64,000 bases of DNA from a virus: IMG/VR virus record IMGVR_UViG_3300010354_000067, positions 10,050 through 74,049 of that record; one strand, written 5' to 3'. Shown piece by piece: positions 39,974 through 63,654 of the stretch. Position 1 is the stretch's first letter. Each line of letters opens with the position of its first letter. Both the position numbers and the translations under genes were made by a program. Under the pieces are notes generated by a model, which was not told the DNA's origin, made no database searches, and worked only from the letters and a program-made list of their open reading frames with translations.

Positions 39974-39975
39974 TA

Positions 39976-40320: not shown

Positions 40321-40328
40321 GGATAATA

Positions 40329-40709: not shown

Positions 40710-40914
40710 TTTGTCAGAGATGGAGCAGATTGTTGCTTCACGTTCAGACCTTCATTGGGAAGGCTGGGACGTAGTGCGTTACAAGAAGAACCCAAATGCA
40801 CAGTTTGATGTGACTGGCGTTTTTAGAAATGGTTCTTGGCACAAGCGTTACGTTTTTCCAATCACTGAGGATGGATGGTCCATTCCACATAGCATTGGAA
40901 ATCGTGATGCATAA
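40693..40914 (+). CDS. Hypothetical protein
   Basis: In operon. Confidence 0.5.
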   Translation: MMFITSLSEMEQIVASRSDLHWEGWDVVRYKKNPNAQFDVTGVFRNGSWHKRYVFPITEDGWSIPHSIGNRDA

Positions 40915-41188
40915 ATGGAAAGATAAAGCAAAGTGTCTTGGAATGGACACCAATATATTTTTTGATAAGTATGAAGAGGATCAAAAGATTGCAGCGAGCA
41001 TAGATCTTTTATGTAGAGATTGCCCAGTAAATAGACAGTGTTTTGCCGTAGGTGTCTCCAACAAGGAATGGGGAGTCTGGGGTGGTGTTTATTTAAAAGA
41101 GGGAAACATCGACAAGGAGTTTAATGCTCATAAGACAAAGCAGTCATGGTTTGATACTTGGCAGTCCTTGACGATGGAGAAGAGATGA
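40907..41188 (+). CDS. whiB: WhiB family transcription factor
   Basis: C..FF...CRDCPV..C...GVWGG. Confidence 0.9.
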   Translation: MHKWKDKAKCLGMDTNIFFDKYEEDQKIAASIDLLCRDCPVNRQCFAVGVSNKEWGVWGGVYLKEGNIDKEFNAHKTKQSWFDTWQSLTMEKR

Positions 41189-41448
41189 TTTATACACCCA
41201 AGATGAAGGCTCTGGTTCATTCAGTTCCAGTACCTGCTGATTTTATAATGGACGTTGTAGAGTATGACATGTACCCGCCCTATATTGGCCTTAGATTTTA
41301 TGAAAGCCACTGGAGACACATGTCTGATAGGGAGCGTCTTAAGTGTATCTCCTATCTACAAAAGGTTAAGGCTATTATTGAGTCCCATGGCGTGCCAGTA
41401 ACACTTGATCCAGTGTATGACGTTCCTGGAGGACAAAAGTTAGGATGA
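41185..41448 (+). CDS. Hypothetical protein
   Basis: In operon. Confidence 0.5.
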   Translation: MIYTPKMKALVHSVPVPADFIMDVVEYDMYPPYIGLRFYESHWRHMSDRERLKCISYLQKVKAIIESHGVPVTLDPVYDVPGGQKLG

Positions 41449-42404
41449 GTATCTTTGTTTCTATAGTTTCATATCGTGATACAGAACTCTTGCCAACAAT
41501 TAAAAGTATTTTACAAAATGCTGATGATCCAAGCGATCTTCATTTTGGCGTAGTGTCACAGGATCTAAAGAATAGTCATCCAGATCTTTCTTTTATCAAG
41601 CAACTCTCTTACCTTAAAATGGATTTTCGGGAGGCAAGGGGAGTTGGATATGCTAGAAAGATTGCTATGGAAATGTATGACAATCAATCTTTTTATTTTC
41701 AAATAGACTCTCATATGCGTGCTGCTCAAGGATGGGATACAAAACTAAAAAGCATGTACGATACATGCTCTTCTTTAGAAAAAAATGAAAAGATAATCCT
41801 GAGCCAATTTCCTGCACCATATGAAATTCATACAGACGGATCAATATTCTATCCAAAAAATCATTATGAACTTTGGGACATTCCAAGTTGGTCAAAGGTT
41901 CACAACAGAGATCACGGAGCATGGTCAGCAACAAGACAAATAATTAAAGACCTTTCTGTGCCACATATATCAGAAACAGTTCTGGCTGGATATCTTTTTG
42001 CCCCCAAGCCTTTCGTAAAAGAAATTCCATACGATGAAAGAATATCTTTTATGGGAGAAGAACTTTGTATAGCAATCAGAGCCTATACGAGAGGTTGGAA
42101 GATATATGCTCCAAATGAAATGCTTCTTTGGCATTTCTATAAAAGAAAGTTAAGCCCAAAGATTTGGAATCAAAATGATGATATTAAGAGGCCGCTGAAG
42201 TGGGTAGAAATGGAAATGGAGTCTAAGAAGGTACAGAAAAATATTCTGCTTGGTAATGAGACAGGGTTATATGGAATCGATAACCATGACAAGTATCTTG
42301 AGTACCAAGACTTTATTGGAATTAACTTTGCTGACTTTTATAAGAATGAGATAAACAAAAAGGTGAACAACTCGTTAAGAGTAGAAGAAATAATGTTTCC
42401 GTGA
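41445..42404 (+). CDS. Polypeptide GlcNAc-transferase-like glycosyltransferase (GT60/GlcNAc family)
   Basis: SIFVSIVSYRD, ARGVGYAR, QIDSH, GEE...RAYTRGW. Confidence 0.8.
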   Translation: MSIFVSIVSYRDTELLPTIKSILQNADDPSDLHFGVVSQDLKNSHPDLSFIKQLSYLKMDFREARGVGYARKIAMEMYDNQSFYFQIDSHMRAAQGWDTKLKSMYDTCSSLEKNEKIILSQFPAPYEIHTDGSIFYPKNHYELWDIPSWSKVHNRDHGAWSATRQIIKDLSVPHISETVLAGYLFAPKPFVKEIPYDERISFMGEELCIAIRAYTRGWKIYAPNEMLLWHFYKRKLSPKIWNQNDDIKRPLKWVEMEMESKKVQKNILLGNETGLYGIDNHDKYLEYQDFIGINFADFYKNEINKKVNNSLRVEEIMFP

Positions 42405-42483
42405 CTATAATCATAGTCATTTTGTTTGACCAATGAACAAATTTCTGGTACGATATATGTATCACCCAAAAGGAGGAATTTAC

Positions 42484-42639
42484 ATGAAGGCACTTTCACG
42501 CCTATTTGCGAATCTTTTCACAAGCCCTGCCACAAGCAGCATAGAAAAGATGCACAGAGAATGGGATCGTCAGAGGGCAAAGGCAATGTCCCCAAGCGAA
42601 CTTTCTGAAATTGATGCAATATTTGCCCGTCACATCTAA
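42484..42639 (+). CDS. Small hypothetical protein
   Basis: AGGAGG RBS. Confidence 0.45.
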   Translation: MKALSRLFANLFTSPATSSIEKMHREWDRQRAKAMSPSELSEIDAIFARHI

Positions 42640-42730
42640 TTGACAATCATCCACTCCATACGATATAATTTTGGAGTGGATGAGTCATATGATGAGGACT
42701 ATCTATCATCATACTACGAAGGAGATTTAA

Positions 42731-42910
42731 GTGCTGGATGCCAGAGGAATACCAACTAGAGAGTGTCCCAGTTGTGCATCATGCCTGTTTACTGTTCAGG
42801 TAGTGTTTGATGATCAATACGAGATCGGCATGTACCTTCTTGATGCAGAGTGTGCGATGTGTCATACCAAGGTGACCGCTCCTACACCATTGGATTTGGT
42901 AGAACAATGA
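42731..42910 (+). CDS. Small Zn-ribbon protein (not in ORF track)
   Basis: RGIPTRECPSC...ECAMC...TAPTPLD. Confidence 0.55.
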   Translation: MLDARGIPTRECPSCASCLFTVQVVFDDQYEIGMYLLDAECAMCHTKVTAPTPLDLVEQ

Positions 42911-43143
42911 CAGAGTTCTATGCAAAAATTGTGCCAACAGACAAGGGGATGTTTAGATTTCGTGCAACAATATGGAGATCAGAAAATAATATTGATAGCC
43001 CTTGGATGACTAGAGGATTTTTTACCATCAATGCAGCAAGAAGATGGTCAATTAGAAATATAACAAAACTAGTATTCTTTCATAATAAAATGCTATTTAT
43101 AAAAGAACAGGACATAGTAAGGAGAAAGTGGAATGAGCAATGA
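42907..43143 (+). CDS. Hypothetical protein
   Basis: Overlapping start/stop. Confidence 0.4.
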   Translation: MTEFYAKIVPTDKGMFRFRATIWRSENNIDSPWMTRGFFTINAARRWSIRNITKLVFFHNKMLFIKEQDIVRRKWNEQ

Positions 43144-43303
43144 AGAACTTCTACAGAAAGTTTTAAGCGCAACAATCGAAAGATTTGGAAAGCAGTCAAT
43201 AGCACATGAAGCAGAGATTGCAAACCTTTCCTCTCAGATTTTTATTCTATCTTCTCAGATAGAAGAACTAAAGTCTGATAAGCCAGCAAAAAATAAAGAA
43301 TAG
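43133..43303 (+). CDS. Small coiled-coil protein (not in ORF track)
   Basis: MSNEELLQKVL...HEAEIANLSSQI. Confidence 0.45.
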   Translation: MSNEELLQKVLSATIERFGKQSIAHEAEIANLSSQIFILSSQIEELKSDKPAKNKE

Positions 43304-43318
43304 TGATATAATCACATT

Positions 43319-43606
43319 ATGTATAGATTTATGTTGAATGACATTAGCAAGCGTGATTATAATACTGCTGCTCGCCGTAGAATGGCTGAATCAGGTCAGG
43401 CTATGCCAGACGGATCATTTCCTATTGCCAATCGTGCAGACTTGCAGAATGCCATTCAGTCAGTTGGTCGTGCGAGCAACTATGAGGCTGCTCGTCGTCA
43501 TATCATCTCCCGCGCCCGTGCGTTAGGAGCAGAGGATATGCTTCCAGAGGACTGGAAGAAGTCAGAGAAGTCAATGTTCTCTAATGTCCTATCACCAAGA
43601 TGGTAA
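43319..43606 (+). CDS. Head-morphogenesis-associated small protein
   Basis: AMPDGSFPIAN..DLQNAI..VGRA...HII.RARALG..LPEDW; leaderless extended -10 promoter. Confidence 0.55.
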   Translation: MYRFMLNDISKRDYNTAARRRMAESGQAMPDGSFPIANRADLQNAIQSVGRASNYEAARRHIISRARALGAEDMLPEDWKKSEKSMFSNVLSPRW

Positions 43607-43720
43607 GCATTTTTGAAGATGATAGCGAATATGTTTGCGTATCACATAACATGCTAATTCCATGCCCAATGGGGGACAATCATCTTGTTTCTAATTGGCC
43701 CACTGATGTTGCAAAGGTTC

Positions 43721-43749
43721 TTGACACCATTGCAAATCACAAGTATAAT
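43721..43749 (+). promoter_or_regulatory. sigma70-type promoter
   Basis: TTGACA-17-TATAAT; similar sites at 33203, 39578, 42640, 44454, 44762, 49256. Confidence 0.75.
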
Positions 43750-43778
43750 AACGAGTAACTACTACAGTTAGGCAATCA

Positions 43779-44273
43779 ATGCAAACCTTTGTTCCATTTG
43801 CAGACTTTGCTGAGTCTGCTTCTGTTCTTGACAGTAAGCGACTTAACAAGCAACTGCTTGAAGGTCGTCAAATTTATCAAATTATTTCTACCAATAAAGA
43901 TCGTGGTGCGTGGGTAAATCATCCAGCAGTAAAAATGTGGCGCAACTGTGACGTTGCCCTATTTCAATATCTTGCTGCTGTCAAGAATGAGTGCGTTAAT
44001 CGCGGTATCCAGACTGATAAAAACTGGTCTACTATTCTCTACATGCATCAGAACAATTGGTATCGTGGCGATAATCTTGTTATGCCTGCATGGTGGGGCG
44101 ATGAGCGGGTACACCAGTCTCATCGCAACAATCTATATGTAAAAGATCCAGACTACTATGCACAGTTTTCACACGACAATCGTGTAACTTGTTGTGATAA
44201 GTGTAACTACTTCTGGCCTACCCATACGCTATACTATAACGCAGAATTTGGAGGATATGTAAATGTCGGATAA
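43779..44273 (+). CDS. Pyrimidine-dimer DNA glycosylase-like (MSMEG_6728 family)
   Basis: MQTF.P...LD.KRL.KQ..E; NHPAVKMW; SHRNNL..KDP. Confidence 0.8.
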   Translation: MQTFVPFADFAESASVLDSKRLNKQLLEGRQIYQIISTNKDRGAWVNHPAVKMWRNCDVALFQYLAAVKNECVNRGIQTDKNWSTILYMHQNNWYRGDNLVMPAWWGDERVHQSHRNNLYVKDPDYYAQFSHDNRVTCCDKCNYFWPTHTLYYNAEFGGYVNVG

Positions 44274-44457
44274 GCAACTTACAGAAGAGCAGGAGAGGGC
44301 ACTACGAGATCTTGAAAGTGCTAGTCAAAATCTCAGGCGTGCAGCAGGAGGTAAGGTTGGAGAGTCTGCTGAGAAGGCCTATGGTCAAGCATATACACGA
44401 TGCTATCAACTTGGTCTGAAGCAATATCCGCCTACTGTTTGTAGATCAACACGTTGA
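44263..44457 (+). CDS. Hypothetical protein
   Basis: RBS, overlap with upstream gene. Confidence 0.45.
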   Translation: MSDKQLTEEQERALRDLESASQNLRRAAGGKVGESAEKAYGQAYTRCYQLGLKQYPPTVCRSTR

Positions 44458-44494
44458 CAAATGCCTGCCCCTAGGCTAAAATATAGGGGTACAC

Positions 44495-44565
44495 GCGACT
44501 GTGGTGTAGAGGTAACACAAGTGCCTTCCAAGCATTTATCGCCAGTTCGATTCTGGTCAGTCGCT
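44495..44565 (+). tRNA. tRNA-Gly(UCC)
   Basis: Cloverleaf, loop CTTCCAA. Confidence 0.9.
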
Positions 44566-44601
44566 CGCTTGGGAAGTTGATGTTTTGTCATAATTAAATA
44601 A

Positions 44602-44674
44602 CTCGCTGTAGTTCAGGGGACAGAACGCGAAACTTCTAATTTCGATGCCGCAGGTTCGAATCCTGCCAGCGAGA
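44602..44674 (+). tRNA. tRNA-Arg(UCU)
   Basis: Cloverleaf, loop CTTCTAA. Confidence 0.9.
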
Positions 44675-44678
44675 CTGA

Positions 44679-44761
44679 GCGGGATAGTCCCCAAGGTGGG
44701 GAAGCGGTCTGTAAAACCGTCGCCTTCGGCATGGTTGGTTCGATTCCAACATCCCGCACCA
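44679..44761 (+). tRNA. tRNA-Tyr(GUA)
   Basis: Loop CTGTAAA, long variable arm, encoded CCA. Confidence 0.9.
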
Positions 44762-44826
44762 TTGACAACTACATAGTGATACCGATATAATATACCTATC
44801 GTTAAAAATTAGTGATAGGATAGATT

Positions 44827-45045
44827 ATGGATACCATGACAGAAGAGAAGTCAGACACGCTCAACGCTCATGATCGATGTGATTCATGTGGCAGCCAAGC
44901 ATTTGTTTGGGTTAATGGAGTAGCAGGAGATCTTCTTTTCTGCCGTCATCATTTTCTTAAGCATGAGGACAAGTTGCGAGAGTATGCTTTTGAAATTATT
45001 GATGAGACTTGGAAGATTAATGAGAAGAGTGAATCTTCCGCATAA
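44827..45045 (+). CDS. Small actinobacterial-type Zn-binding protein
   Basis: DRCDSCGSQA...LLFCRHH. Confidence 0.6.
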   Translation: MDTMTEEKSDTLNAHDRCDSCGSQAFVWVNGVAGDLLFCRHHFLKHEDKLREYAFEIIDETWKINEKSESSA

Positions 45046-45115
45046 TAAATTTTAATAGGATAAAATATAGCAAGGCCAGAGAACAATCCCTGCGTAAGTA
45101 AATTGCTCTGGTTAC

Positions 45116-45188
45116 GCCTCAATAACTCAGTTGGTAGAGTGTCATACTTGTAATATGAATGTCGGCGGTTCGATTCCGTCTTGAGGCT
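45116..45188 (+). tRNA. tRNA-Thr(UGU)
   Basis: Cloverleaf, loop CTTGTAA. Confidence 0.9.
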
Positions 45189-45249
45189 CCGCCATAAATG
45201 ATATATGAGTGCCGCACGGCGAGGCTCTGATCAGGCTCATATATCGCTT

Positions 45250-45322
45250 GCCCCCATCGTCTAGAGGCCTAGGATAAAGGATTTTCACTCCTTCGGCACG
45301 GGTTCGAATCCCGTTGGGGGTA
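45250..45322 (+). tRNA. tRNA-Glu(UUC)
   Basis: Cloverleaf, loop TTTTCAC. Confidence 0.9.
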
Positions 45323-45326
45323 CAAA

Positions 45327-45398
45327 GGATCATTAACTCAGTGGTAGAGTGTTTCGTTTACACCGAAAAGGTCGGAGGTTCGAATCCTTCATGATCCA
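45327..45398 (+). tRNA. tRNA-Val(UAC)
   Basis: Cloverleaf, loop TTTACAC. Confidence 0.9.
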
Positions 45399-45399
45399 C

Positions 45400-45470
45400 T
45401 CCCCGTTGGTGTAACGGCAGCACAACTGACTCTGACTCAGTTAGTCGTAGTTCGAATCTATGGCGGGGAG
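45400..45470 (+). tRNA. tRNA-Gln(CUG)
   Basis: Cloverleaf, loop CTCTGAC. Confidence 0.9.
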
Positions 45471-45493
45471 CGCAAGACAATCTAAGGAGAAAA

Positions 45494-45706
45494 ATGTATA
45501 CAAGAATTATCCTAGGCAACGATATTTGGTTTGTTGTTGACGAGGCAGTAGAAGATATCGTTGCAAAGTTTAACGATAATTCTTCTGTCATTACTGCACG
45601 AGTTATTGACGGATATGACGTTTCAGTTATTAAGAGTAAGATTCTGTGTTTCGTTTCTGTTAGCATTACACAGGAACTAAATATTGAAGTGCCTGAAGAA
45701 GAGTAA
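45494..45706 (+). CDS. Hypothetical protein within tRNA array
   Basis: AAGGAG RBS; downstream hairpin at ~45709-45740. Confidence 0.5.
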   Translation: MYTRIILGNDIWFVVDEAVEDIVAKFNDNSSVITARVIDGYDVSVIKSKILCFVSVSITQELNIEVPEEE

Positions 45707-45742
45707 CAATGTTTCCCACATTCTTGTAGTGTGGGAACATAA

Positions 45743-45825
45743 GGCCAAGTGGTGGAACGGCAGACACGCTTGACTCAAAATCAAGTGCCCGAAAGGGCGT
45801 GAGGGTTCGAATCCCTCCTTGGCTA
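45743..45825 (+). tRNA. tRNA-Leu(CAA)
   Basis: Loop CTCAAAA, long variable arm. Confidence 0.9.
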
Positions 45826-46860
45826 CAAAGAATTGATAAGATCAATATACTTTTGTTTTAATTTAGCATGTGAAAAATTATCATATCCTATGGAGAAAGC
45901 ATGTTCTTTCTGCTCATCGATATTTGATTTAGAAAAGTATTTATCTACTACTTCTGCAAGTTGTTCTGGATTAGCATTGTATAAACTAATGCCTATTCTT
46001 GTCATAAATGTTTTGACAAAATTGCTATCTACCAGCCAGTCTTTAGGTAAAACTAAATTGTTTGGAGATATGTCTGTCATAAATACTGGCAGTCCACTCA
46101 TAAGAGCCTCATTCATGGGCAAGCAAAGGCCAGCATAGCGTCTAGGAAGGATCATTGCATCATAGTTGCTATAAAGATCCTCCTTATTCTTTTCATTGTT
46201 TGTTAATATTGAAAGTCTTTCATCTGTGCAAGAGATATCTAGATTACTCTGTGTTTTTATTACAAGTTCGTAATCTTTTTTAGAATACTTAAGCATCTCA
46301 ATTACACTATTCGTTCCATTTCTATCGTAAATAGCGGCTTTTCCAGCAACATGCAAAAGTCTATTTGATCTATTAGAATTTATGTTTTTGTTTTGTTCAA
46401 AAAGTTTTTCGTCGGTGGGTGGGGGCAGATGAGTAACTAAGCATCTATCCTCAAACTTTTCTTTTACTTCATCAAATCTCCAAAGACTTGGTGCAAGCAA
46501 AACATCTGGTAATAATAACTTGCTATCTGAAAGATAGTCTAAGAACTCAAAGTTGTATTGCAGAATTGTCTTTATTCTCTTCTTTTTTGCAAGGGCAACA
46601 AAATGCTTGCTGTAAAAGGTTTCACAACTAATGACAACCTTTAAGCCATCAAAGAACTTTAATAGTGTTTTATTATCTGGAAAACCTTTGCTTACTACTA
46701 TTGGCCTTCCCTCATACCACTCATAGTTTTGAATATTTTTATTATGAAATGTTGATGAGTCAATGATAAGAATTTTTTCTGGATCAAGCATCTTTACAAG
46801 TTCATGTGTCTGGTTTCCCAAACCAGTATTATCTGCCCTTACAACAATTCCAAGTTTCAT
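45823..46860 (-). CDS. GT-B (GT4-like) glycosyltransferase
   Basis: DNTGLG N-terminus; PRRYAGLCLPMNEALMSGLPVFMTD. Confidence 0.85.
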   Translation of the reverse strand: MKLGIVVRADNTGLGNQTHELVKMLDPEKILIIDSSTFHNKNIQNYEWYEGRPIVVSKGFPDNKTLLKFFDGLKVVISCETFYSKHFVALAKKKRIKTILQYNFEFLDYLSDSKLLLPDVLLAPSLWRFDEVKEKFEDRCLVTHLPPPTDEKLFEQNKNINSNRSNRLLHVAGKAAIYDRNGTNSVIEMLKYSKKDYELVIKTQSNLDISCTDERLSILTNNEKNKEDLYSNYDAMILPRRYAGLCLPMNEALMSGLPVFMTDISPNNLVLPKDWLVDSNFVKTFMTRIGISLYNANPEQLAEVVDKYFSKSNIDEQKEHAFSIGYDNFSHAKLKQKYIDLINSL

Positions 46861-47546
46861 TCTAGTCCATATCTATTTTTTAGGGTTTCTATTGAGTTTG
46901 TCTCCCAATATGAAAGCGGTAGTTGTGGATTATTAAATGGGTTTCTATATTCTCCCCACCCATCTCTTGTTCTTTCTCCGCCCCACTTATCTTTAAAGTA
47001 ATCATGTACGGCATTGATATTTACTTGGCAACCATCTGTTGTAGCCCCACCATCTGCCTGACAGATTGCATCTATTGGAATGTTCCCATATTCATCTATT
47101 CCATAGATTCCACATCGATGATCCCAATCACAGTCTTCAAAATATCCTGGATAAAAATTTTCATCAAAATATCCAATAGAATCAACAAGTTTTTTATTAA
47201 TTGCATTGCAATGCCAAGCATGGCTTGTTCTAAACATGAGTCCAGAATAGTCTTTTAGTTTTTGTAAAATGGGATCAAAGCCGTTTGGGAAATACATTGA
47301 ACTTGAAACAACAAATGTCCAGTCGTGCCCTTGCCTTAGACCGATATTCCACGATCTAGGAACGCCGATATTCTCATCTTGATAAGATATTTCTATGCCA
47401 AGGCGCTCAAACTCTTTGCATTCTTTGCTGCCACTATTGTCTATAAGAAGAATGTTTTCATAGTTTTTAATTGAGTAGAGACAATTCCTAGTTCTTTCAC
47501 TCGTCCTATAAACTGGAATGCATATTAGGTAGTCTAGTATCTCCAT
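46857..47546 (-). CDS. GT2-like glycosyltransferase
   Basis: ICIPVY, LIDNS, NIGVPRSWNIG, GYFDENFYPGYFEDCD. Confidence 0.85.
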   Translation of the reverse strand: MEILDYLICIPVYRTSERTRNCLYSIKNYENILLIDNSGSKECKEFERLGIEISYQDENIGVPRSWNIGLRQGHDWTFVVSSSMYFPNGFDPILQKLKDYSGLMFRTSHAWHCNAINKKLVDSIGYFDENFYPGYFEDCDWDHRCGIYGIDEYGNIPIDAICQADGGATTDGCQVNINAVHDYFKDKWGGERTRDGWGEYRNPFNNPQLPLSYWETNSIETLKNRYGLE

Positions 47547-48184
47547 CCCCAAATCATTCCTCCACGTTCCCAACTTCCCATTGTTCTCACATGATGAGTT
47601 TCAGAAAGTTTTTGCACCATTGCTCCAAGCGAATCTCCAGCCCTAATATCAAATTCCATAGTAATGTAATTGCATTTGTTAATGGATTCTCTTGATGCCC
47701 CAAGAATAAGTTCTTTCTCGCTACCCTCAATATCTATTTTTAGAACGTCAACTTCTTCAATAGAAAAATGAGCAAGAAGGTCATCAAAACTAATAATCTT
47801 TATAGTAGAACCAGGCTTGTTGTCCTTAATCGTAGATCCCCCGCCAGAGTTATCGATAACGGCTACTCCATTAAAATTACTTACGCCATAGTCAATGACA
47901 AAAATTTTATCTTGCATTCCATTTAACTCTATGTTCTTTTTTAAAACCTCTAGATTATTTGGCTCTGGCTCAACAGCATATACCTGAGCACCCTTTGATG
48001 CACAGTAAACAGAGAAGCATCCAATGTTTGCTCCAATATCTAGAACAACTCCACCACGATTAAGATATTCATCTTCCATTCGATAAACATCTTCTTCCCA
48101 AATTTCTCGGATAACAACTGGATCTGTGTCCATGTCTTCTCTTACATAAAATTTGCAAGCACCATTTACTTCTTGAATAATCAT
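47534..48184 (-). CDS. FkbM family methyltransferase
   Basis: LDIGANIG, AVEP, LKIDIEGSE. Confidence 0.9.
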   Translation of the reverse strand: MIIQEVNGACKFYVREDMDTDPVVIREIWEEDVYRMEDEYLNRGGVVLDIGANIGCFSVYCASKGAQVYAVEPEPNNLEVLKKNIELNGMQDKIFVIDYGVSNFNGVAVIDNSGGGSTIKDNKPGSTIKIISFDDLLAHFSIEEVDVLKIDIEGSEKELILGASRESINKCNYITMEFDIRAGDSLGAMVQKLSETHHVRTMGSWERGGMIWGWRY

Positions 48185-49125
48185 AATCCTAATTCCTCTA
48201 ATATAAACTGCCACCTATCTTTGTAGGTATAGTTTCCTTTTACCAATTCATGACCAGCAAGTCTTATCTCTTCCCTTTCCTCGTCATGATCTAAGTAATA
48301 ATCTATTAATTCCTTCAACTGCTTAAAGTTCTTGTATTGATAAAAGACCAAATGCTCTTTATCAACAAATTCTTTTTCCATTCCAGAGATATATGGATGA
48401 ATAATAAAACCACCGCGCCCAATAGTTTCATAAACTCTATCTGACCAATAATCAGAATAAGTAAAGTTTGGACAAAGTGTATCCCCAACAACTACCTTGG
48501 TGCTTGCATAAAGTTTATTTAAGTTTTTCCCCCTGACTGTTCCAAGACCATCGTTACCCCAATGCTCAAACTTTTTCCCATATGTCTTTTCAAGCCAGTC
48601 AATAAGTTGAGTACGGTATTTCCACTCTGGATGATATCTTTTGCTTCCAACAAAGATAACTTCATGGCTTAGACTTTTTGCGGGGGTGAAATAAGCCTCT
48701 TTATCATAAACTCCAGCGGGTACATAATGTCCCTTTACCGAAGTTTTTTTATTAAACCATTCTGCCATCTTTGCATCTACTGTAAAAAAATGACCTATTT
48801 CTTTATATACTGGATCAGAAGAAAGATCTCTTTGCCTTTTTAGACCAAACCATAGGTCTAGATGGTATGTCATCGTTGGAATACCATTTAATTTTAATTG
48901 TTTTAGTACAGTAGACATGGTTAGCCTACCCTTAGTCTTCCATCCATGAGTATGGACCCAGACAAAAAGGTCAGCCTTTTTTGCGGCAGCAAGAATTTCC
49001 TCACTCGTAGCCTCAGTTTCTTGTAACTTAGTAACCTTGTGTCCCATGGACTGTAAGGTTTTCACATGATGGCTTTCGGTGGTATAATCTACTCTGAAGT
49101 TTCCAAGAAAAACAATTTTTGCCAT
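48181..49125 (-). CDS. CgeB/YkvP-like glycosyltransferase
   Basis: VIFVGS, SDRVYETIGRGGF, IDYYL.HDEERE.IR.AG..HTY-like end. Confidence 0.8.
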   Translation of the reverse strand: MAKIVFLGNFRVDYTTESHHVKTLQSMGHKVTKLQETEATSEEILAAAKKADLFVWVHTHGWKTKGRLTMSTVLKQLKLNGIPTMTYHLDLWFGLKRQRDLSSDPVYKEIGHFFTVDAKMAEWFNKKTSVKGHYVPAGVYDKEAYFTPAKSLSHEVIFVGSKRYHPEWKYRTQLIDWLEKTYGKKFEHWGNDGLGTVRGKNLNKLYASTKVVVGDTLCPNFTYSDYWSDRVYETIGRGGFIIHPYISGMEKEFVDKEHLVFYQYKNFKQLKELIDYYLDHDEEREEIRLAGHELVKGNYTYKDRWQFILEELGL

Positions 49126-49148
49126 TTTTTTACCAATCTAAGTGCATA

Positions 49149-49158
49149 AATTATATCA
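49149..49158 (-). promoter_or_regulatory. Extended -10 promoter for glycosylation cassette
   Basis: TGATATAATT on - strand, identical to the structural-gene motif. Confidence 0.65.
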
Positions 49159-49180
49159 TGCACATTTTTGAAATAAGTAA

Positions 49181-49255
49181 TGGTGTGTGGCGCAACGGCA
49201 GCGCAATCGGCTGTTAACCGATGGGTTGGAGGTTCGAATCCTCCCACACCAGCCA
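49181..49255 (+). tRNA. tRNA-Asn(GUU)
   Basis: Cloverleaf, loop CTGTTAA, encoded CCA. Confidence 0.9.
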
Positions 49256-58422: not shown

Positions 58423-58595
58423 TAGTAGTCCTCATCTTCCTCATCGTCATTACGCGGGGGGTTGTCCATGATCTGAAGCAGCCCACTATTCAGCAGGTAC
58501 TCCAACTGCCCCATGCCATCAAGGATCTCATCAGACTCAAACTCATAGTCTGCTATGCCATTGCCACAGTCAATGTAACCAGAATAAATAGGCAT
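58422..58595 (-). CDS. Small acidic protein, tandem paralog B (not in ORF track)
   Basis: MPIYSGYIDCGNGIADYEFESDEILDGMGQLEYLLNSGLLQIMDNPPRNDDEEDEDY. Confidence 0.65.
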   Translation of the reverse strand: MPIYSGYIDCGNGIADYEFESDEILDGMGQLEYLLNSGLLQIMDNPPRNDDEEDEDY

Positions 58596-58759
58596 TAGTC
58601 CTCCTCATCCAGTTCTACTCGGGGGTTGTCAACGATCTGAAGAATACCAGTATCCAGCAGGTAAGTCAACTGTCCCATGACATCCAACTCTTCCTCAGAC
58701 TCAAACTCATAGGATGCCTCCTCAAGTCCGCAGTCAATAGTTCCAGAATAAAGATACAT
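58595..58759 (-). CDS. Small acidic protein, tandem paralog A (not in ORF track)
   Basis: MYLYSGTIDCGLEEASYEFESEEELDVMGQLTYLLDTGILQIVDNPRVELDEED. Confidence 0.65.
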   Translation of the reverse strand: MYLYSGTIDCGLEEASYEFESEEELDVMGQLTYLLDTGILQIVDNPRVELDEED

Positions 58760-59937
58760 TATGCCTCCACCTCCGTTGCCTCAATGAGAATATTATCAAG
58801 GATGTGCTGAACAACCTCATTCTCGTCCATGTCGCCCATCTCGTCAAAGAATTCAGTATACATGGGCTTGCCCTCAAACTCAATATAGATATCCCAAGTC
58901 TTGTGCTCCATCATCCCTCCTGAAAATTGTGGTAGTAACGAGTCCACGGAAGTTGGGTATCATCCGTGTAGAAGTCAAGCGTGCCCTCCACGCCGTCAGA
59001 CTTGCGCTTGACAATAGCCCACCCATAGGCGAAGCCAAGCACTTCATATTGCTCTAGCATCTGCTCTTTTGTCATATCCATAGGCCCATCCTAGTCTACG
59101 CTGCTCCCCATGTCAAGCCCTCGCGCTGCCAATCTGCGCCATGCTCAAGGAAGGCAGCCTCCAACTTCTGCATCCAACGGTAGGACTGAGACTCCTCCCA
59201 TGCTCCCATGTGCTCACAAGACTGATAAGAATAGAAATGAACCATCTTGAGAGCCTGATCAAAGTCATAGGGATCATAGGTCGTGCCGTTCTTGGCGTTA
59301 GACCGTGGCTCTGTGTAATGATAGGCAGGAGCCTTCTGATACTCAGGACGATACCAACCATAGCGAGCACGCAGACTGCGGTAGTTCTCCTTACGCAACT
59401 CCCTACCAATACTAGTCTTATCACGCTTGGACAAGCCAAGGGTACTGATCCAATAGGAAAGACAATCAATCTCACTATTACTAACAGACCAAGCAGACAC
59501 TAGTCCTCATCCTCCACAGTCCAATCAGCAGAAACCTCGTTCCAGTCAAAGTTCTCAGCATCGTAGGAATCACACTCAATGTTGTATGACAGATCAAAGT
59601 CATCATTGTCGAATCCAAGCGGCACATCAGCCTCAAACTCAACCTCAATAGTCATCGTGCCCTTGATACGCTTGGTCAGTTGGATATCAAGAAGACGAGC
59701 AACCTCTTCCATGTCCTCATCAATCTCACCATTCATAGAGTAGAGATCCATGATGTGACCCTTGACATTCTCAATCTTGCGCTGAAGGTAGACATAATCG
59801 GACTGCCACCGCTCATTAGACTTCTTGAGACTCTCAATCTGAATAAGCAGATCGTCACGGTCATTGGGCACGGGGGCAGAATGAAGATTACTAATCTTCT
59901 CAGTAAGCCCAGCAATAATCTCATCTGTCGTATTCAT
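58759..59937 (-). other. Four hypothetical genes (58759-58914, 58911-59081, 59096-59500, 59500-59937)
   Basis: Coupled - strand ORFs behind promoter 59993-59964. Confidence 0.55.
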
Positions 59938-60098
59938 TACACTCCTTGGTAGTAGATGGTGCAATCCTATACGATGGGTATGACACTTGTCAAGGGGGTT
60001 TCGGTGATTTTTTGGGAGAGTTCTTAATCGTTCGTAAATGAGTTTTGGTTTTATCAAAGTGATTTCCGGCCGCCTGGGGAGCCAATTGTCAAGTGTGA

Positions 60099-60125
60099 GA
60101 GCAGTTTAGACTCATGCTCAGGAGT
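60099..60125 (-). ncRNA. Small H-type pseudoknot motif, copy 1
   Basis: ACTC-CTGAGCAT-GAGT-CTAAAC-TGCTC. Confidence 0.55.
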
Positions 60126-60132
60126 GTGATGC

Positions 60133-61116
60133 TTAGGCGAATGCGACCTGACGCACAGCCTTCAGCATCGCGTTCTTTGCAGCGTTAGTCGCAGCATCGA
60201 AACCACTAGCAGACGCAAGCACAGACTCAGCGTTGCCATTGCGAGGGCTGCGATACCAGTCAAGGCGCTCAGTGAGTGCGTTGTATGCACCCCACGCAGT
60301 GCCCTTGATGTTGACGCAAGTCTCACCGTTGTAGATGGTGTTGAGAGTGTCGATCTTGTTCTCCCACTTGGTCATGCTGCCCTTGGTGTCAGCCTCGGGC
60401 TTGGGGTAGACAGCAGTGATGATATCGAAGAACTGCTTGTCATTGATCTCCTGCGAGATCATCTCCTGAGCCTGCTTGTCAAACTCGTCAAGGTACTTGT
60501 GCGCAAGGCCAAGCGCCTCACGAGCAGCAGCAACCTTGCCAGTGACAGTCTGAGTGTGGCGAATCTTGTAAGACTGCTTGACACCAGACAGTGCAGCATT
60601 GAGCGTATTCTGGCAGACAACACGCACAGGGGTAACGCTAGCCTGAACAGCAAGCGAACCATCATGCGAGGTATGCACGAGAAGGTAGGTGTTCACCTTA
60701 TCGGTAGCACCGTTAGGGTCAAGCACGATCTCACGATCAAGCGCGAGAGAACCGAACACGACCGTACCGCTCTTGATAGAACCAGCAGTCTCCCAACGAC
60801 CACCGTCCAGCATGTTGTCAGCGAATGAGAACAGTTCCTCATTCTGCACAACCTTGTAACGCTCACCCACAACGCCAAGAACGTCAGCGCCGTTATCGAA
60901 TGGGTTAGTGCGAACGACCGCGAAGTACGGACGATGCGTGCGACCTGGGAGGTCGATATCCTCAATGCGAACATCCCAATCGTTGAGATGTGCAGCAGCG
61001 AGCATCTCGCTCGTGGTGACCTCAGTGTCAAGGATGGTGCCAAGACCGTGCCACGCAGGTTCCCGCAGGGATGCGAAGGAAGCCATCTCGCCGTACTGCT
61101 CCAGCATGTGTGCCAT
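60133..61116 (-). CDS. DUF932/DUF945 family protein
   Basis: PAWHGLG, YKVVQN, SHDGS, TPVRVVCQNTL, GTAWGAYNA. Confidence 0.88.
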   Translation of the reverse strand: MAHMLEQYGEMASFASLREPAWHGLGTILDTEVTTSEMLAAAHLNDWDVRIEDIDLPGRTHRPYFAVVRTNPFDNGADVLGVVGERYKVVQNEELFSFADNMLDGGRWETAGSIKSGTVVFGSLALDREIVLDPNGATDKVNTYLLVHTSHDGSLAVQASVTPVRVVCQNTLNAALSGVKQSYKIRHTQTVTGKVAAAREALGLAHKYLDEFDKQAQEMISQEINDKQFFDIITAVYPKPEADTKGSMTKWENKIDTLNTIYNGETCVNIKGTAWGAYNALTERLDWYRSPRNGNAESVLASASGFDAATNAAKNAMLKAVRQVAFA

Positions 61117-61150
61117 TTGTGTTTTCCAATCTGTAGTAACTGATGGCATA

Positions 61151-61179
61151 AGCATACGCCTATTAGGATGAGTTGTCAA
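61151..61179 (-). promoter_or_regulatory. sigma70-type early promoter
   Basis: TTGACA-17-TATGCT; same class at 56445-56417, 59993-59964, 62221-62192, 62786-62758, 63133-63104. Confidence 0.7.
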
Positions 61180-61326
61180 GGGGTATTTTCTAGGTTTTGG
61201 CGAAATTCTGGGTGTGGTCTTAATCACATCGTAAAGGCTTGACAAATGGAGATTTTTGCGACCGGCCTGGAAGAGTCCCCCTAGGGAGCAATGGTGGGTG
61301 GGGGTATGCTCAACCTAGGGGGACAG

Positions 61327-61399
61327 CGATTCTGATGGGATTCGAACCCACGACCTCCACCGTGACAGGGTGGCGAGCACTCCGCTGCTCTACAGAACC
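61327..61399 (-). tRNA. tRNA-Asp(GUC)
   Basis: GGTTCTG/CAGAATC acceptor, loop CTGTCAC, GGTTCGAATCC. Confidence 0.88.
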
Positions 61400-61406
61400 A
61401 GTGTGC

Positions 61407-61433
61407 AGCAGTTTTACATCATGCTCAGGATGT
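61407..61433 (-). ncRNA. Small H-type pseudoknot motif, copy 2
   Basis: ACATC-CTGAGCAT-GATGT-AAAAC-TGCT. Confidence 0.55.
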
Positions 61434-61547
61434 TCGGGGGATATCCCCAAATAAAGTTGCTAGGTATTCCCTGAGGACTCCTAGCAGTTAGTGTTACGGA
61501 CTGGTATTGCAACCAATGAGTATGCATCCTCTTAGTTTTTCCGCTTA

Positions 61548-61618
61548 CGCACCCTGTCAAGGAATCGAACCCTGCAAGACAAGTTTTGGAGGCTCGTCTG
61601 TACCCAGTACCCAAGGCG
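61548..61618 (-). tRNA. Atypical tRNA-Trp(CCA)-like RNA with reduced D-arm
   Basis: GACGAG-cCTCCAAAa-CTTGTC anticodon arm; CAGGG-TTCGATT-CCTTG T-arm. Confidence 0.55.
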
Positions 61619-61829
61619 TGGGGAATGCTTATTCGGCTTCACATTCCAATACCACCTGACGGATACACTGTGTACCCTGCTAGTTATAACATTCACGAAC
61701 AGGTGGGGGGAAGCGAGTCGATGCTGGCTAGTTCCGACTCCCACGGAACTCTAGCACTAATGGTCCAACGAACCATCGCGGGTCGCATATCCCCAAGCCA
61801 CTATTTAGTTATCTTGTGATTGTATCACA

Positions 61830-61976
61830 TTACTTGACGGTTGTCCACCGCATACCGTTGGCAGTAGCCAGACGGACACGGATGGAACCTGACGGATTCT
61901 GAACGATCTCCTCAATCGTTCCCTCCACACCACTCTTCTGAGTAGTGAACTGCGAGCCAACAGTCAGAGTTGCCAT
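61830..61976 (-). CDS. Small SH3-like protein
   Basis: MATLTVGSQFTTQKSGVEGTIEEIV; AAGGAAG RBS. Confidence 0.6.
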   Translation of the reverse strand: MATLTVGSQFTTQKSGVEGTIEEIVQNPSGSIRVRLATANGMRWTTVK

Positions 61977-62004
61977 TTTGCTTCCTTTCGTTTGTTTGTT
62001 TGTT

Positions 62005-62154
62005 TTACTTGCCAACGATGACAAGAGTCTGGGGGGTAGCCTGAGTCTGGTTGGTTGCACCAATGAACGTACCCTCAGGAGTACGCACAACAGCCTTGAT
62101 GACTGCACCCTGCTGAGTGTTCCACTTCTCAGTGCGAACGATGACCTTGGACAT
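62005..62154 (-). CDS. Small protein, first gene after promoter (not in ORF track)
   Basis: MSKVIVRTEKWNTQQGAVIKAVVRTPEGTFIG... Confidence 0.55.
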   Translation of the reverse strand: MSKVIVRTEKWNTQQGAVIKAVVRTPEGTFIGATNQTQATPQTLVIVGK

Positions 62155-62248
62155 TTACGAACCCACTTTCGTTGTTGTTGTTATGATGGATATTCTAGTC
62201 GATGGTGGGGGTACTTGTCAAGACTTTCCCCCCACCGTTATCAAACTG

Positions 62249-62725
62249 TTACCAAGAGGCACGGTAGATGAAGTCAACCCAAGTATCAGGGCCAACAGAT
62301 GCGAGAACCTTGTCCAACTGACGGACAGTATTCTGCAAGTCCTCCATGTACCACTCATCATAGTCATACGAGCCAAAGAAGAATCCAGGCTGAGTAGGCA
62401 GAGCAGTAGAAGCCATGGCAGGCTGTTCGATGATTGACTTGCACAGATCGCGCAACTCCATCAACTTGTCATGCGAGACATAGATGGACTGACACTCATC
62501 GCGTCCACCATCCAGATCGCAGAACCACTTATGCACGGCATTGGCCTTGCGCCAATACGCAACGCAAATGTCAACATAGGCGTGAGGCGAACCCTCGCAA
62601 CGATCAACATTCATGTATTCACGAATCGCGTCATACATGGCACGCTCATCCTTACCGTCATCGACGGTCTTCCATTCCCAACCACCGACATACTCACGAC
62701 GGTACAGGTACATATCAAGTCCCAT
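62249..62725 (-). CDS. Conserved phage protein (MGLDMY/YWRKAN family)
   Basis: MGLDMYL, YWRKANAVH.WF, GFFFGS..YDEWY, terminal Y.ASW. Confidence 0.7.
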   Translation of the reverse strand: MGLDMYLYRREYVGGWEWKTVDDGKDERAMYDAIREYMNVDRCEGSPHAYVDICVAYWRKANAVHKWFCDLDGGRDECQSIYVSHDKLMELRDLCKSIIEQPAMASTALPTQPGFFFGSYDYDEWYMEDLQNTVRQLDKVLASVGPDTWVDFIYRASW

Positions 62726-62763
62726 TTGGAACCCACCTTTCCTTGTTTGTTAGTAGAACCCTA

Positions 62764-63654
62764 TCACAGATCAGATGTGCTGTCAAGGATTATGCGAAAC
62801 TTTTTTGAGAATTCTGCCTCAATGTGACGACGGTAGCCTTCCTCATCGACCAACACGAAGCGGTAGTCAAGGGTGTCCCCATCCTCAATCTCTACAATTC
62901 TGTAGACAGCACCCTGCACAGTAATTTGATCCCCCACCTCAAGAGAGTACGCTTCCATCAGATCAGTAGTCATTCTGGTTCTCCTTCTTCCAATTGATCT
63001 TCTCACGCTTGCGAATGATCTTAGCAGACTCGCGGGGGTAGCAGCAAGTGCATCCCTTGTGTCCATTCCTCGCAATGTTCCTGTTTGATCTCAACATGGT
63101 ATGACCCTATCACATGATAACACAGGCTGTCAAGGACTCAGGCCAAAAAAATGCTGTTTCTTAAATCACTTCTTAAAGTCTTGACAGATGGTAACTTGTG
63201 TGCCGGATTTCTCTTTCAGCATCTTCCATAGACAATAATAGCAGCAGCCAAAAGGAATAATCCGCCAAAGAATCCTAGGATATTGCTGTTCACTCTATCC
63301 CCAATTCCTTTTCGATACGATCAGCAATGTAGATTAGGTCAAAGTCATAGTCGTCCATTACGTTACCCCTGATATTTGCGAGGCATAGATCACGAATGGT
63401 CAGCAATACATCATGATTCCAATTCATTTGATAGTAGTAGCCACCGAATTCATTTTCTTTACGCATGGCTAGATATCTCTCCCTTGTGCCCTCGCTTGTT
63501 CGACTAATGACCATAGTTCTTGCATGATGTATAGTTCTTCATCATCAATGATCCATTCATCATCACGCACGATCTTCTCCACATTCGGGGCAGGGAGGAT
63601 ATTCCATGTTGTCCATTTGATGTGCGATGAGCATTCCTCGCCAATCATCATCAA
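62764..63654 (-). other. Small hypothetical genes (62764-62973, 63290-63514, 63469-63654 and others)
   Basis: Short - strand ORFs. Confidence 0.45.

What the first reader, a model, noticed from the sequence alone, without database searches (positions are those of the whole stretch)
60099..61433. Two copies of a 27-nt pseudoknot RNA with covarying stem
Seen (- strand): ACTC-CTGAGCAT-GAGT-CTAAAC-TGCTC and ACATC-CTGAGCAT-GATGT-AAAAC-TGCT. The P1 stems differ but both pair, the loop is invariant and pairs with the 3' TGCT(C), an AAAC linker is kept, and both are followed by CACAC. One lies 7 nt after the DUF932 stop, the other 7 nt before tRNA-Asp. Inference: a functional RNA such as a nuclease-blocking element, a ligand/protein-binding aptamer, or a mimic of type III antitoxin pseudoknots. 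I cannot assign it to a known family.
Basis: partly seen in the sequence, partly recalled or inferred. Interest (0 to 1): 0.72.

Follow-up and report, generated by a model that had tools for sequence, protein, structure and literature searches.

The report
Widespread phage gene-end RNA pseudoknot
The two look-alike stretches are genuine copies of a tiny (about 27-base) knotted RNA fold, found in no RNA catalogue searched, that hundreds of unrelated phages and mobile elements place just after a gene's stop codon or just before a tRNA. It most likely acts as a compact roadblock or end-cap on long phage messages, but this is untested.

Summary
Observation confirmed. Both copies sit on the minus strand at 60099-60125 and 61406-61433, and they are the only two in the 74-kb virus record.

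They belong to a very large family:
- A structure-aware scan found 396 copies in 2 Mb of fetched loci, against 5 in reversed controls.
- Both helices of the H-type pseudoknot covary. P1 has 4 bp and P2 has 5 bp. G-U wobbles are common and A-C is essentially absent, so the pairing is on this strand, as expected for RNA.

Rfam 15 has no matching family, and the literature searches found no description. This scan has already reported the same motif at least 8 times on other genomes.

The closest known relative is the 'coremin' Xrn1-resistant motif of plant and fungal RNA viruses and its Watson-Crick variant. The phage motif shares the UC/GA-closed hairpin, the UUAAAC linker and the loop-to-tail pairing. 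It usually lacks coremin's second hairpin.

Placement:
- It never starts closer than about 5 nt to the upstream stop codon.
- It usually ends 20-30 nt before the next start codon, or 4-14 nt before a tRNA.
- It was never found after a tRNA.

Best reading: a mechanical roadblock or end-cap at cistron boundaries. The ToxI-mimic, riboswitch and ribozyme readings have little support.

The parts
60099..60125 (-). Pseudoknot copy B. P1 is 60125-60122 paired with 60113-60110 (4 bp). L1 is CU (60121-60120). P2 is 60119-60115 paired with 60103-60099 (5 bp). L2 is U (60114). L3 is CUAAAC (60109-60104).
   Evidence: Sequence. Exact pattern hit. Covariance-model score 43.0 bits, E 9.5e-10. Family covariation.
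61406..61433 (-). Pseudoknot copy A. P1 is 61433-61429 paired with 61420-61416 (5 bp). The loop is CUGAGCAU (61428-61421). L3 is AAAAC (61415-61411). P2 is 61425-61422 paired with 61410-61407 (4 bp). G61426 and G61406 are mismatched.
   Evidence: Sequence. Pattern hit. Covariance-model score 41.6 bits, E 2.3e-09.
60133..61116 (-). DUF932 gene (327 aa as translated from the ATG at 61116). Its stop codon at 60135-60133 lies 7 nt before P1 of copy B.
   Evidence: Translation. Pfam PF06067 at E 2.4e-55. phrog_1221 at E 1.4e-101. DUF932 is the commonest gene directly upstream of the motif in other phages: 34 instances, with a gap of 8-11 nt to C0.
61326..61399 (-). tRNA-Asp(GTC). Its 5' end lies 6-7 nt after copy A.
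   Evidence: ARAGORN. Rfam tRNA at 59.9 bits. In other loci, 31 tRNA-Asp genes follow the motif within 300 nt.
61151..61179 (-). Sigma-70-like promoter (TTGACA, 17 nt, TATGCT) between tRNA-Asp and the DUF932 gene. It would place copy B on the DUF932 transcript.
   Evidence: Consensus scan, 10 of 12 matches. This is a consensus match only.
59964..59993 (-). Next sigma-70-like promoter (TTGACA, 18 nt, TAGGAT), about 105 nt downstream of copy B and ahead of the next minus-strand gene.
   Evidence: Consensus scan. No intrinsic-terminator-like site was found in 58500-63000.

Best explanation
The two stretches are members of a very widespread, uncatalogued family of about 27-nt H-type RNA pseudoknots.

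Shown:
- The consensus is NNUC-CU-GAGCA-U-GANN-NNAAAC-UGCUC-A.
- The motif is carried on the sense strand of phage and mobile-element transcripts, at cistron boundaries.
- The fold closely resembles the 'coremin' Xrn1-resistant pseudoknot of eukaryotic RNA viruses.

Inferred (how it works):
- It acts as a compact, mechanically tough roadblock or end-cap.
- It folds just outside the reach of the ribosome that terminates on the upstream gene, at least 5 nt after the stop codon.
- When the long message is cut downstream, it stops processive enzymes travelling on the RNA. Examples of such cuts are RNase P at the tRNA-Asp 5' end, 6-7 nt after copy A, or endonucleases in the spacer after copy B.
- The enzymes stopped would be 3'-to-5' exonucleases above all, and possibly RNase J-type 5'-to-3' exonucleases and stray ribosomes.
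- The upstream message segment, here the DUF932 mRNA, would therefore keep a defined and protected end.
For: Family size:
- At least 120 viral contigs and at least 119 genome contigs carry the exact 19-base core.
- 396 structure-filtered copies were found in 2.0 Mb, against 5 in reversed controls.
- The covariance model found 208 hits in 0.95 Mb, with up to 8 copies in one 14-kb locus.

Structure:
- P1 pair (-2,11) is Watson-Crick in 127/128 copies, using all four pair types (51 expected).
- P1 pair (-3,12) is paired in 106/128 copies.
- P2 shows compensatory changes at all five pairs, with about 35 G-U wobbles and essentially no A-C.
- In the 148-sequence alignment, 99.5% of cells are paired, against 27-47% when the partners are slid. 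This alignment was pre-filtered for pairing, so the unfiltered counts carry the weight here. 7 of 9 pairs change on both sides.

Placement:
- At least 310 of 396 copies are intergenic.
- The upstream ORF is on the same strand in 270/299 cases.
- The distance from stop codon to P1 has a hard floor at 5 nt: 30 copies at 5 nt, 25 at 6 nt, and almost none closer.
- The distance from P2 to the next start codon is mostly 20-30 nt.
- 33 copies end 4-14 nt before a tRNA 5' end. None of the 137 tRNAs is followed by a copy within 300 nt. That asymmetry fits capping of the RNA left upstream of an RNase P cut.

Cultured phages:
- In Staphylococcus phage B236 the motif sits 9 nt after the minor-head-protein stop codon and ahead of the scaffold gene.

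Relative with tested activity:
- Coremin is GUCCGAAGACGUUAAACUAC.
- Together with its Watson-Crick variant, it shares the UC/GA-closed short hairpin, the UUAAAC linker (predicted to lie in the S1 minor groove) and the loop-to-tail pairing.
- These RNAs stall Xrn1, block scanning ribosomes and drive -1 frameshifting (PMC10520033, PMC10321173, PMC6546385).
Against: - No experiment exists for the phage motif.
- Coremin needs a second hairpin (hp2) to resist Xrn1. Most phage copies have none: flank MFE is -2.81 against -2.45 shuffled, and only 32 of 376 have a hairpin abutting P2.
- Coremin blocks a 5'-to-3' enzyme, which protects downstream RNA. My reading emphasises protection of the upstream RNA.
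- Similar small frameshifting pseudoknots do not stop Xrn1 (PMC10321173).
- The near-invariant sequence across phyla is more than a passive block would seem to need.
- In a bacterial sub-class the stop codon of a tiny ORF lies inside the knot, so the ribosome must melt it.
- Copy A has a weakened P2 (4 bp).
- Nested folding energies are unremarkable, with z-scores of -0.6 and 0.0.
Confidence: 0.45

Rival explanations
1. Ribosome barrier or translational insulator. The knot sits exactly where frameshift and readthrough stimulators sit, 5-8 nt after the codon in the A site. It acts on the ribosome itself. It would stop post-termination or read-through ribosomes from sliding into the next cistron or tRNA, so that neighbouring genes are translated independently.
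For: - The spacer from stop codon to P1 peaks at 5-6 nt, which is the geometry of recoding pseudoknots.
- Coremin-type knots block scanning ribosomes and promote 22-30% -1 frameshifting without needing hp2 (PMC10321173, PMC10520033).
- In phage B236 the knot separates a low-copy gene (minor head protein) from high-copy genes (scaffold, major head).
Against: - There is no frame preference between the stop codon and the knot. DUF932 gaps of 8, 9, 10 and 11 nt are all common.
- No conserved extension ORF was found. In the window, read-through would add only 4 codons.
- Some copies have no ORF close upstream. Copy A lies in a tRNA and pseudo-tRNA cluster.
- The 5-nt floor is equally explained by the knot simply needing to stay folded.
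Confidence: 0.2
2. RNA processing signal. The knot is either a new minimal self-cleaving ribozyme or a tRNA-acceptor-like mimic cut by RNase P. In the mimic reading, U2|G3 is the cut site, G3-C23 is the first pair and A24 is the discriminator. Either way it punctuates polycistronic messages in the way tRNAs and hammerheads do.
For: - The motif is multi-copy, intercistronic, present across phyla, and shows ribozyme-like conservation of unpaired bases.
- In one contig (L142) a copy is followed 3 nt later by a sub-threshold type-P1 twister match, and the contig holds three such matches.
- The family shares positions with tRNAs.
Against: - Twister copies occur only in that one locus.
- Hammerhead-core matches are at control level, and none lies near a knot.
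- No Rfam ribozyme model matches.
- 27 nt with 9 bp leaves little room for an active site.
- The ACC-like tail is only weakly conserved.
Confidence: 0.12
3. Specific binding site. The knot is an aptamer for a universal metabolite, with preQ1-I-like architecture, or the target of a conserved RNA-binding protein that regulates the flanking genes.
For: - The architecture is a short P1, an A-rich tail and a loop-tail P2, like the preQ1-I aptamer.
- Loop nucleotides are strongly conserved.
- It often precedes tRNA-Asp and tRNA-Asn, which carry queuosine (established knowledge).
Against: - No match to the Rfam preQ1 model or any riboswitch model at E up to 10.
- The flanking genes are unrelated to one another: DUF932, DUF7249, DUF3768 and structural genes.
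- The SD is 10-25 nt away, and terminators, when present, do not overlap the knot. So there is no expression platform.
- No protein family is shared by the neighbourhoods. The best, DUF932, is in 49 of about 240 loci.
- L2 varies and tolerates large insertions.
Confidence: 0.08
4. Mimic of a type III antitoxin (ToxI-like) RNA that neutralises a host ToxN/AbiQ-type toxin.
For: It is a small pseudoknot with an A-rich stretch, in phages. This rests on resemblance only.
Against: - There is no tandem array.
- There is no ToxN match in the record, although that search rang in no control genome either.
- The same sequence recurs in phages of many phyla, whereas ToxI repeats are system-specific (established knowledge).
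Confidence: 0.01

Closest known systems
Coremin motif (xrRNA-C) and its Watson-Crick variant xrRNA-WCC of beny-, cucumo-, picorna-like and other eukaryotic RNA viruses (PMC6546385, PMC10520033, PMC10321173)
   Same: - A short hairpin closed by U-A and C-G pairs, with a pyrimidine as first loop base and A-D at the loop end.
- The linker ...UUAAAC follows.
- A tail then pairs with the loop to give an H-type knot. The linker adenines are predicted to lie in the S1 minor groove.
- Many phage copies read CGUCCUGAGCAUGACGUUAAACUGCUC, against coremin GUCCGAAGACGUUAAACUAC.
- Both are found in UTRs and intergenic regions.
   Different: - The phage loop is 8 nt, not 4-6 nt.
- S2 is a 5-bp covarying Watson-Crick helix, against 3 bp or non-canonical pairing in coremin.
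- The hp2 hairpin that coremin needs for Xrn1 resistance is absent from most phage copies.
- The carriers are dsDNA phages and mobile elements of prokaryotes, which have no Xrn1.
- No activity has been tested.
Luteoviral -1 frameshifting pseudoknots (BWYV/PLRV type), as discussed in PMC10321173
   Same: The compact H-type dimensions are alike: S1 of 4-5 bp, a 1-2 nt L1 beginning with C, a single junction nucleotide, and an A-rich 6-7 nt loop crossing the S1 minor groove. The spacing of 5-8 nt from the A-site codon is also alike.
   Different: - The phage knot follows stop codons, not slippery heptamers.
- It has no frame preference and no extension ORF.
- It also precedes tRNAs.
preQ1-I riboswitch aptamer (Rfam RF00522)
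   Same: It is a similarly small H-type pseudoknot with an A-rich tail that packs against P1.
   Different: - The Rfam model does not match.
- There are no queuosine genes downstream.
- There is no SD sequestration.
- The placement is at gene ends.
Intercistronic processing and stabilising elements of phage early operons, such as the RNase III sites of phage T7 (established knowledge, not tested here)
   Same: These are repeated structured elements between cistrons of one transcript. After a cut, they leave a protective structure at the 3' end of the upstream message.
   Different: - Those are long duplexes recognised by one host enzyme in one phage group.
- This is a 27-nt knot with the same sequence across many phyla.

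Membership tests
Coremin / xrRNA-C (incl. xrRNA-WCC) | Short 5' hairpin (hp1, 3-4 bp) with conserved closing pairs | tested here: met
   P1 is 4 bp. C0-G9 is invariant. U-1:A10 is invariant in the 128 canonical-core copies and covaries to A-U or C-G in lower-scoring variants. The two outer pairs covary. Coremin GUC...GAC has the same UC/GA closure.
Coremin / xrRNA-C (incl. xrRNA-WCC) | Loop consensus YGAD (4 nt) or YGNNAD (6 nt) | tested here: inconclusive
   The phage loop is CUGAGCAU (8 nt). It keeps Y first and A-D last, but G is the third base, not the second, and the loop is longer than any tested.
Coremin / xrRNA-C (incl. xrRNA-WCC) | Conserved 8-10 nt spacer (GUUAAACUAC) whose 3' part interacts with the loop | tested here: met
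   The NNAAAC linker is near-invariant, and the five bases after it pair with the loop with covariation. The paired bases differ from coremin's CUAC and resemble the Watson-Crick variant.
Coremin / xrRNA-C (incl. xrRNA-WCC) | Second hairpin (hp2) directly downstream, required for Xrn1 resistance | tested here: not met
   There is no general excess of structure after P2. Mean MFE is -2.81, against -2.45 shuffled and -3.30 for the control region. Only 32 of 376 copies have a hairpin starting right after P2. Neither window copy has an obvious hp2.
Coremin / xrRNA-C (incl. xrRNA-WCC) | Stalls a 5'-3' exoribonuclease (Xrn1) in vitro | not testable with these tools
   This needs a bench assay.
preQ1-I riboswitch (RF00522) | Match to the family covariance model, and location in the 5' UTR of queuosine-related genes | tested here: not met
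   No Rfam hit over any copy at E up to 10. The flanking genes are unrelated to queuosine.
Type III antitoxin RNA (ToxI-like) | Tandem array of about 36-nt repeats next to a ToxN/AbiQ-type toxin gene | tested here: not met
   No tandem repeats in 59000-62500. The copies are single and 1.3 kb apart. There is no PF13958 match in the record, but the controls were silent too.
Known self-cleaving ribozymes (hammerhead, twister, pistol, hatchet, HDV-like) | Match to the family model or core. For pistol: P1, P2 and P3 plus a pseudoknot between the P1 loop and the P2-P3 junction (PMC4604425) | tested here: not met
   No Rfam ribozyme hit over the motif. The tail pairs with the loop directly after the linker, and there is no P2 or P3.

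The most novel reading that the evidence does not exclude
The phage knot is a true structural and functional counterpart of the eukaryotic-virus coremin xrRNA. On this reading, one minimal 'enzyme-stopping' RNA fold is shared, by descent or by convergence, between dsDNA phages of most bacterial phyla and RNA viruses of plants and fungi. Phages would use it routinely to cut their long messages into segments with different lifetimes. A still bolder variant is that it is a new minimal self-cleaving or RNase P-directing motif.
Probability: 0.3. Interest if true: 0.85.

Novelty: new variant of a known kind. Interest (0 to 1): 0.72.

Why it matters
If the reading holds, one of the commonest structured RNA elements of phages has gone uncatalogued. 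It is present in Staphylococcus aureus Phietavirus phages, Vibrio phages, cyanophages, actinophages, crAss-like phages and Saccharibacteria mobile elements.

It would give:
- a simple, testable rule for how phages set the ends and lifetimes of message segments and release tRNAs;
- a link between bacterial RNA decay and the xrRNA biology of eukaryotic viruses;
- a 27-nt portable insulator or stabiliser part for synthetic operons.

Hosts also target it. The motif occurs inside CRISPR spacers of three unrelated bacteria.

Tried and rejected
- **Rfam 15, permissive E-values.** I searched the window region and eight loci of different classes. Nothing matched over the motif.
- **Literature by sequence and keywords.** There was no description of the phage motif. 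The sequence hits were unrelated primers.
- **Protein-coding explanation.** Frame 2 would read P-E-H-D/E-x-K-L-L. I rejected this because third-codon positions are invariant, the upstream frames vary (gaps 8-11 nt), and both helices covary.
- **DNA-level site.** Rejected because G-U (G-T) wobbles are common and A-C is absent. Copies also share the strand of the flanking genes.
- **Shared partner protein nearby.** All-against-all clustering of 3146 ORFs from the loci found none. DUF932 was the most frequent, at 49 of about 240 loci.
- **Association with self-cleaving ribozymes.** Twister-like copies occur in one contig only. Hammerhead-core matches are at control level.
- **Promoter enrichment upstream of the knot.** The count was 59, against 23 at random positions. 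It proved an artefact of a conserved DUF932 C-terminal coding stretch that happens to look like a promoter.
- **The TTGACA right after copy B.** No -10 partner was predicted, so I do not call it a promoter.
- **RNase J as the single target.** This is weakened by genuine copies in Vibrio phages. That Vibrio lacks RNase J is my own knowledge. My control search did not resolve it.
- **Pfam and NCBIfam on the tiny ORF MKRFxVPRxAHCxEGC.** No family matched.
Full report
**The observation**

On the minus strand, copy B reads ACUC-CUGAGCAU-GAGU-CUAAAC-UGCUC (60125-60099). Copy A reads ACAUC-CUGAGCAU-GAUGU-AAAAC-UGCU (61433-61407).
- Copy B starts 7 nt after the TAA stop codon of a DUF932 gene (Pfam PF06067, E 2.4e-55).
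- Copy A ends 6-7 nt before tRNA-Asp(GTC).
- The shared core CCTGAGCATGA-N4-AAACTGCT occurs twice in the window, against 0.04 expected. It occurs nowhere else in the 74-kb IMG/VR virus record that holds the window.
- A covariance model built later scores the two copies at 43.0 and 41.6 bits. The next best hit in the window scores 12.4 bits.

Only the shared 'CACAC' tail is a local detail.

**A very large family**

It also stopped at the limit in one-genome-per-species prokaryotic contigs (at least 119 stretches).
- The genome hits include many Candidatus Saccharibacteria, Clostridia, Aminicenantes, Actinomycetes and MAGs labelled archaeal.
- In 128 unique viral copies, the base before the core is always T, although the pattern did not specify it. 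The base after the core is C in 115 copies and the next is A in 90. Conservation stops there.
- A structure-aware scan of the 2.0 Mb of fetched loci finds 396 copies, against 5 in reversed-sequence controls. Copies within a locus almost always share one strand.
- The covariance model finds 208 hits in 0.95 Mb, with up to eight copies in one 14-kb locus.
- Cultured phages carry it too: 83 Staphylococcus records, 27 Vibrio records, and Synechococcus, Mycobacterium, Arthrobacter, Paracoccus, Bacillus, Streptococcus and crAss-like phages. I checked the sequence in Staphylococcus phage B236 and Vibrio phage D291.

**The structure is a pseudoknot on this strand**

- P1: without any pairing filter, pair (-2,11) is Watson-Crick in 127/128 copies, using all four pair types (51 expected). 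Pair (-3,12) is paired in 106/128 copies. Pair (-4,13) is at chance.
- Lower-scoring copies show that the U-A pair also covaries, to A-U or C-G. Only the closing C-G pair is fixed.
- P2: I used a search that constrained only the two variable P1 pairs. The loop bases and the five bases after AAAC covary at every position. Examples are AAGCA/UGCUU, GGGCG/CGCCC, GGACA/UGUCC, GAGUA/UACUC and GGCCA/UGGCC.
- There are about 35 G-U wobbles and essentially no A-C. The pairing is therefore on the sense strand, as expected for RNA.
- In a 148-sequence alignment, 99.5% of cells are paired, against 27-47% when the partners are slid. Seven of nine pairs change on both sides. That alignment was pre-filtered for pairing, so the unfiltered counts carry the weight.
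- The anatomy is: P1 4 bp, L1 C(U/C), P2 5 bp, L2 one base (usually U, sometimes a large insertion), L3 NN+AAAC.
- Nested energy models see nothing special. The evidence for the fold is comparative.

**Where it sits**

- At least 310 of 396 copies are intergenic by a crude ORF call.
- The upstream ORF is on the same strand in 270/299 cases and the downstream ORF in 230/285.
- The distance from the stop codon to the first P1 base has a hard floor at 5 nt: 30 copies at 5 nt, 25 at 6 nt, and almost none closer.
- The distance from P2 to the next start codon is mostly 20-30 nt.
- Five nucleotides is about the stretch that the ribosomal mRNA channel keeps single-stranded beyond the A-site codon (established knowledge). 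The knot can therefore stay folded while the upstream ribosome terminates.
- Thirty-three copies end 4-14 nt before a tRNA, and tRNA-Asp accounts for 31 of the 41 tRNAs found within 300 nt downstream of a copy. None of the 137 tRNAs in the loci is followed by a copy within 300 nt.
- The gene most often directly upstream is DUF932, as in the window (34 instances). DUF7249, DUF3768 and many unknown small genes also occur.
- No protein family is common to the neighbourhoods.
- In phage B236 the knot lies 9 nt after the minor-head-protein gene and before the scaffold gene.
- A bacterial sub-class differs. A promoter, an SD and a 16-29-codon ORF (MKRFxVPRxAHCxEGC...) run into the knot. The ORF's stop is usually the knot's own UGA, and a terminator often follows.

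**Comparison with what is known**

Rfam 15 has no matching family, and my literature searches found no description.

The scan's own notebook shows that the same motif was reported at least eight times on other genomes, with coremin named as the closest relative. I treated that as a lead and read the papers.
- Coremin is GUCCGAAGACGUUAAACUAC. It is a short hairpin with loop YGAD or YGNNAD, a conserved spacer, and a second hairpin, hp2.
- It stalls Xrn1 and blocks scanning ribosomes (PMC6546385, PMC10520033).
- A Watson-Crick variant forms a canonical 3-bp knot with the spacer adenines predicted in the S1 minor groove. It drives 22-30% -1 frameshifting. It needs hp2 for Xrn1 resistance but not for frameshifting (PMC10321173).
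- Many phage copies read CGUCCUGAGCAUGACGUUAAACUGCUC. They share the GUCC...GACGUUAAACU frame.
- The resemblance in sequence and architecture is therefore real. However, the loop is longer, S2 is longer, and hp2 is generally missing. There is no excess structure after P2, and only 32 of 376 copies have an abutting hairpin.
- I therefore file the motif as working like coremin, not as a member of the family.

**Mechanism**

What is shown is a conserved knot at cistron and tRNA boundaries on the sense strand. What is inferred is what it does.

I favour a roadblock or end-cap (confidence 0.45). After a downstream cut, the knot leaves the upstream message with a short tail and a tough fold that 3' exonucleases cannot pass. 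For copy A the cut would be by RNase P. For copy B it would be by endonucleases in the 105-nt spacer before the next promoter. The strict 'before, never after' relation to tRNAs supports this direction.

The rivals are:
- a ribosome barrier (0.2; same geometry as recoding knots, but no frame preference);
- a processing signal or ribozyme (0.12; the twister association is confined to one contig);
- a ligand or protein site (0.08);
- a ToxI mimic (0.01).

RNase J as the sole target is unlikely, because Vibrio phages carry genuine copies. That Vibrio lacks RNase J is my own knowledge and was not tested here.

**Verdict**

This is a real, structured and very widespread RNA element. It is uncatalogued in Rfam, and its function is untested. 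It is a new variant of the compact coremin/luteovirus-type pseudoknot, in a new host domain. The two window copies are ordinary members of the family, and copy A has a slightly weakened P2.

Noticed in passing
window 61549-61617 (-) and 61723-61800 (-): Degenerate tRNA-like sequences lie upstream of copy A. With relaxed ARAGORN thresholds there is a tRNA-Trp(CCA)-like gene with a reduced D-arm, which is also a weak Rfam tRNA-like hit of 18.7 bits. There is also a weaker tRNA-Asn(GTT)-like one. Copy A therefore lies inside a minus-strand cluster of tRNAs and pseudo-tRNAs.
   Followed up: partly
L161 (Saprospira grandis DSM 2844), L162 (Limisphaerales MAG), L193 (Oscillatoriaceae MAG): In these three loci the motif lies inside CRISPR spacers, flanked on both sides by the array's repeats. 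Hosts of three phyla have acquired spacers against this conserved phage element.
   Followed up: no
L128:4719-4805(-), L154:1149-1208(+), L176, L217 and about 10 more genome loci: A tiny conserved ORF (MKRFxVPRxAHCxEGC..., 16-29 codons) with its own SD occurs in Aminicenantes, Thermodesulfobacteriota, Spirochaetota, Actinomycetes and Eubacteriales MAGs. It usually ends at the UGA inside the knot, and several copies are followed by an intrinsic terminator. It has no Pfam or NCBIfam family. Synonymous changes suggest it is translated.
   Followed up: partly
L142 1-4000 (Selenomonadaceae MAG contig): This is a dense array of small RNA elements next to a 698-aa gene whose N-terminus looked DUF3800-like to me by eye; I did not run Pfam on it. 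The array holds at least 6 knot copies, 3 sub-threshold type-P1 twister matches (36-41 bits), and at least two other repeated 40-45-nt sequences that I could not identify.
   Followed up: partly
L031, L046, L050, L074, L113 and others: In one sub-family a short hairpin (for example CCCGUAAGGG) starts exactly at the base after P2. That reproduces the full coremin layout of knot plus hp2. It occurs in 32 of 376 copies, and several are followed by a TTGACA promoter.
   Followed up: partly
L004, L014, L031, L047, L068: A variant sub-family has AAAAGGCUC in place of AAACUGCUC after the linker. P2 is shortened to 4 bp.
   Followed up: no
window, 12 sites, e.g. 59987-59994, 60086-60093, 61173-61180, 62215-62222 (-): The octamer CTTGACAA occurs 12 times, against 3.8 expected. 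Several sites form sigma-70-like promoters in front of small minus-strand genes at 57-63 kb, which looks like an early region with many promoters.
   Followed up: no
window 37424-49255 (+): Ten further tRNA genes lie on the plus strand (Ile, Gly, Arg, Tyr, Thr, Glu, Val, Gln, Leu, Asn), mostly in a cluster at 44.5-45.8 kb. None is preceded by the knot.
   Followed up: no
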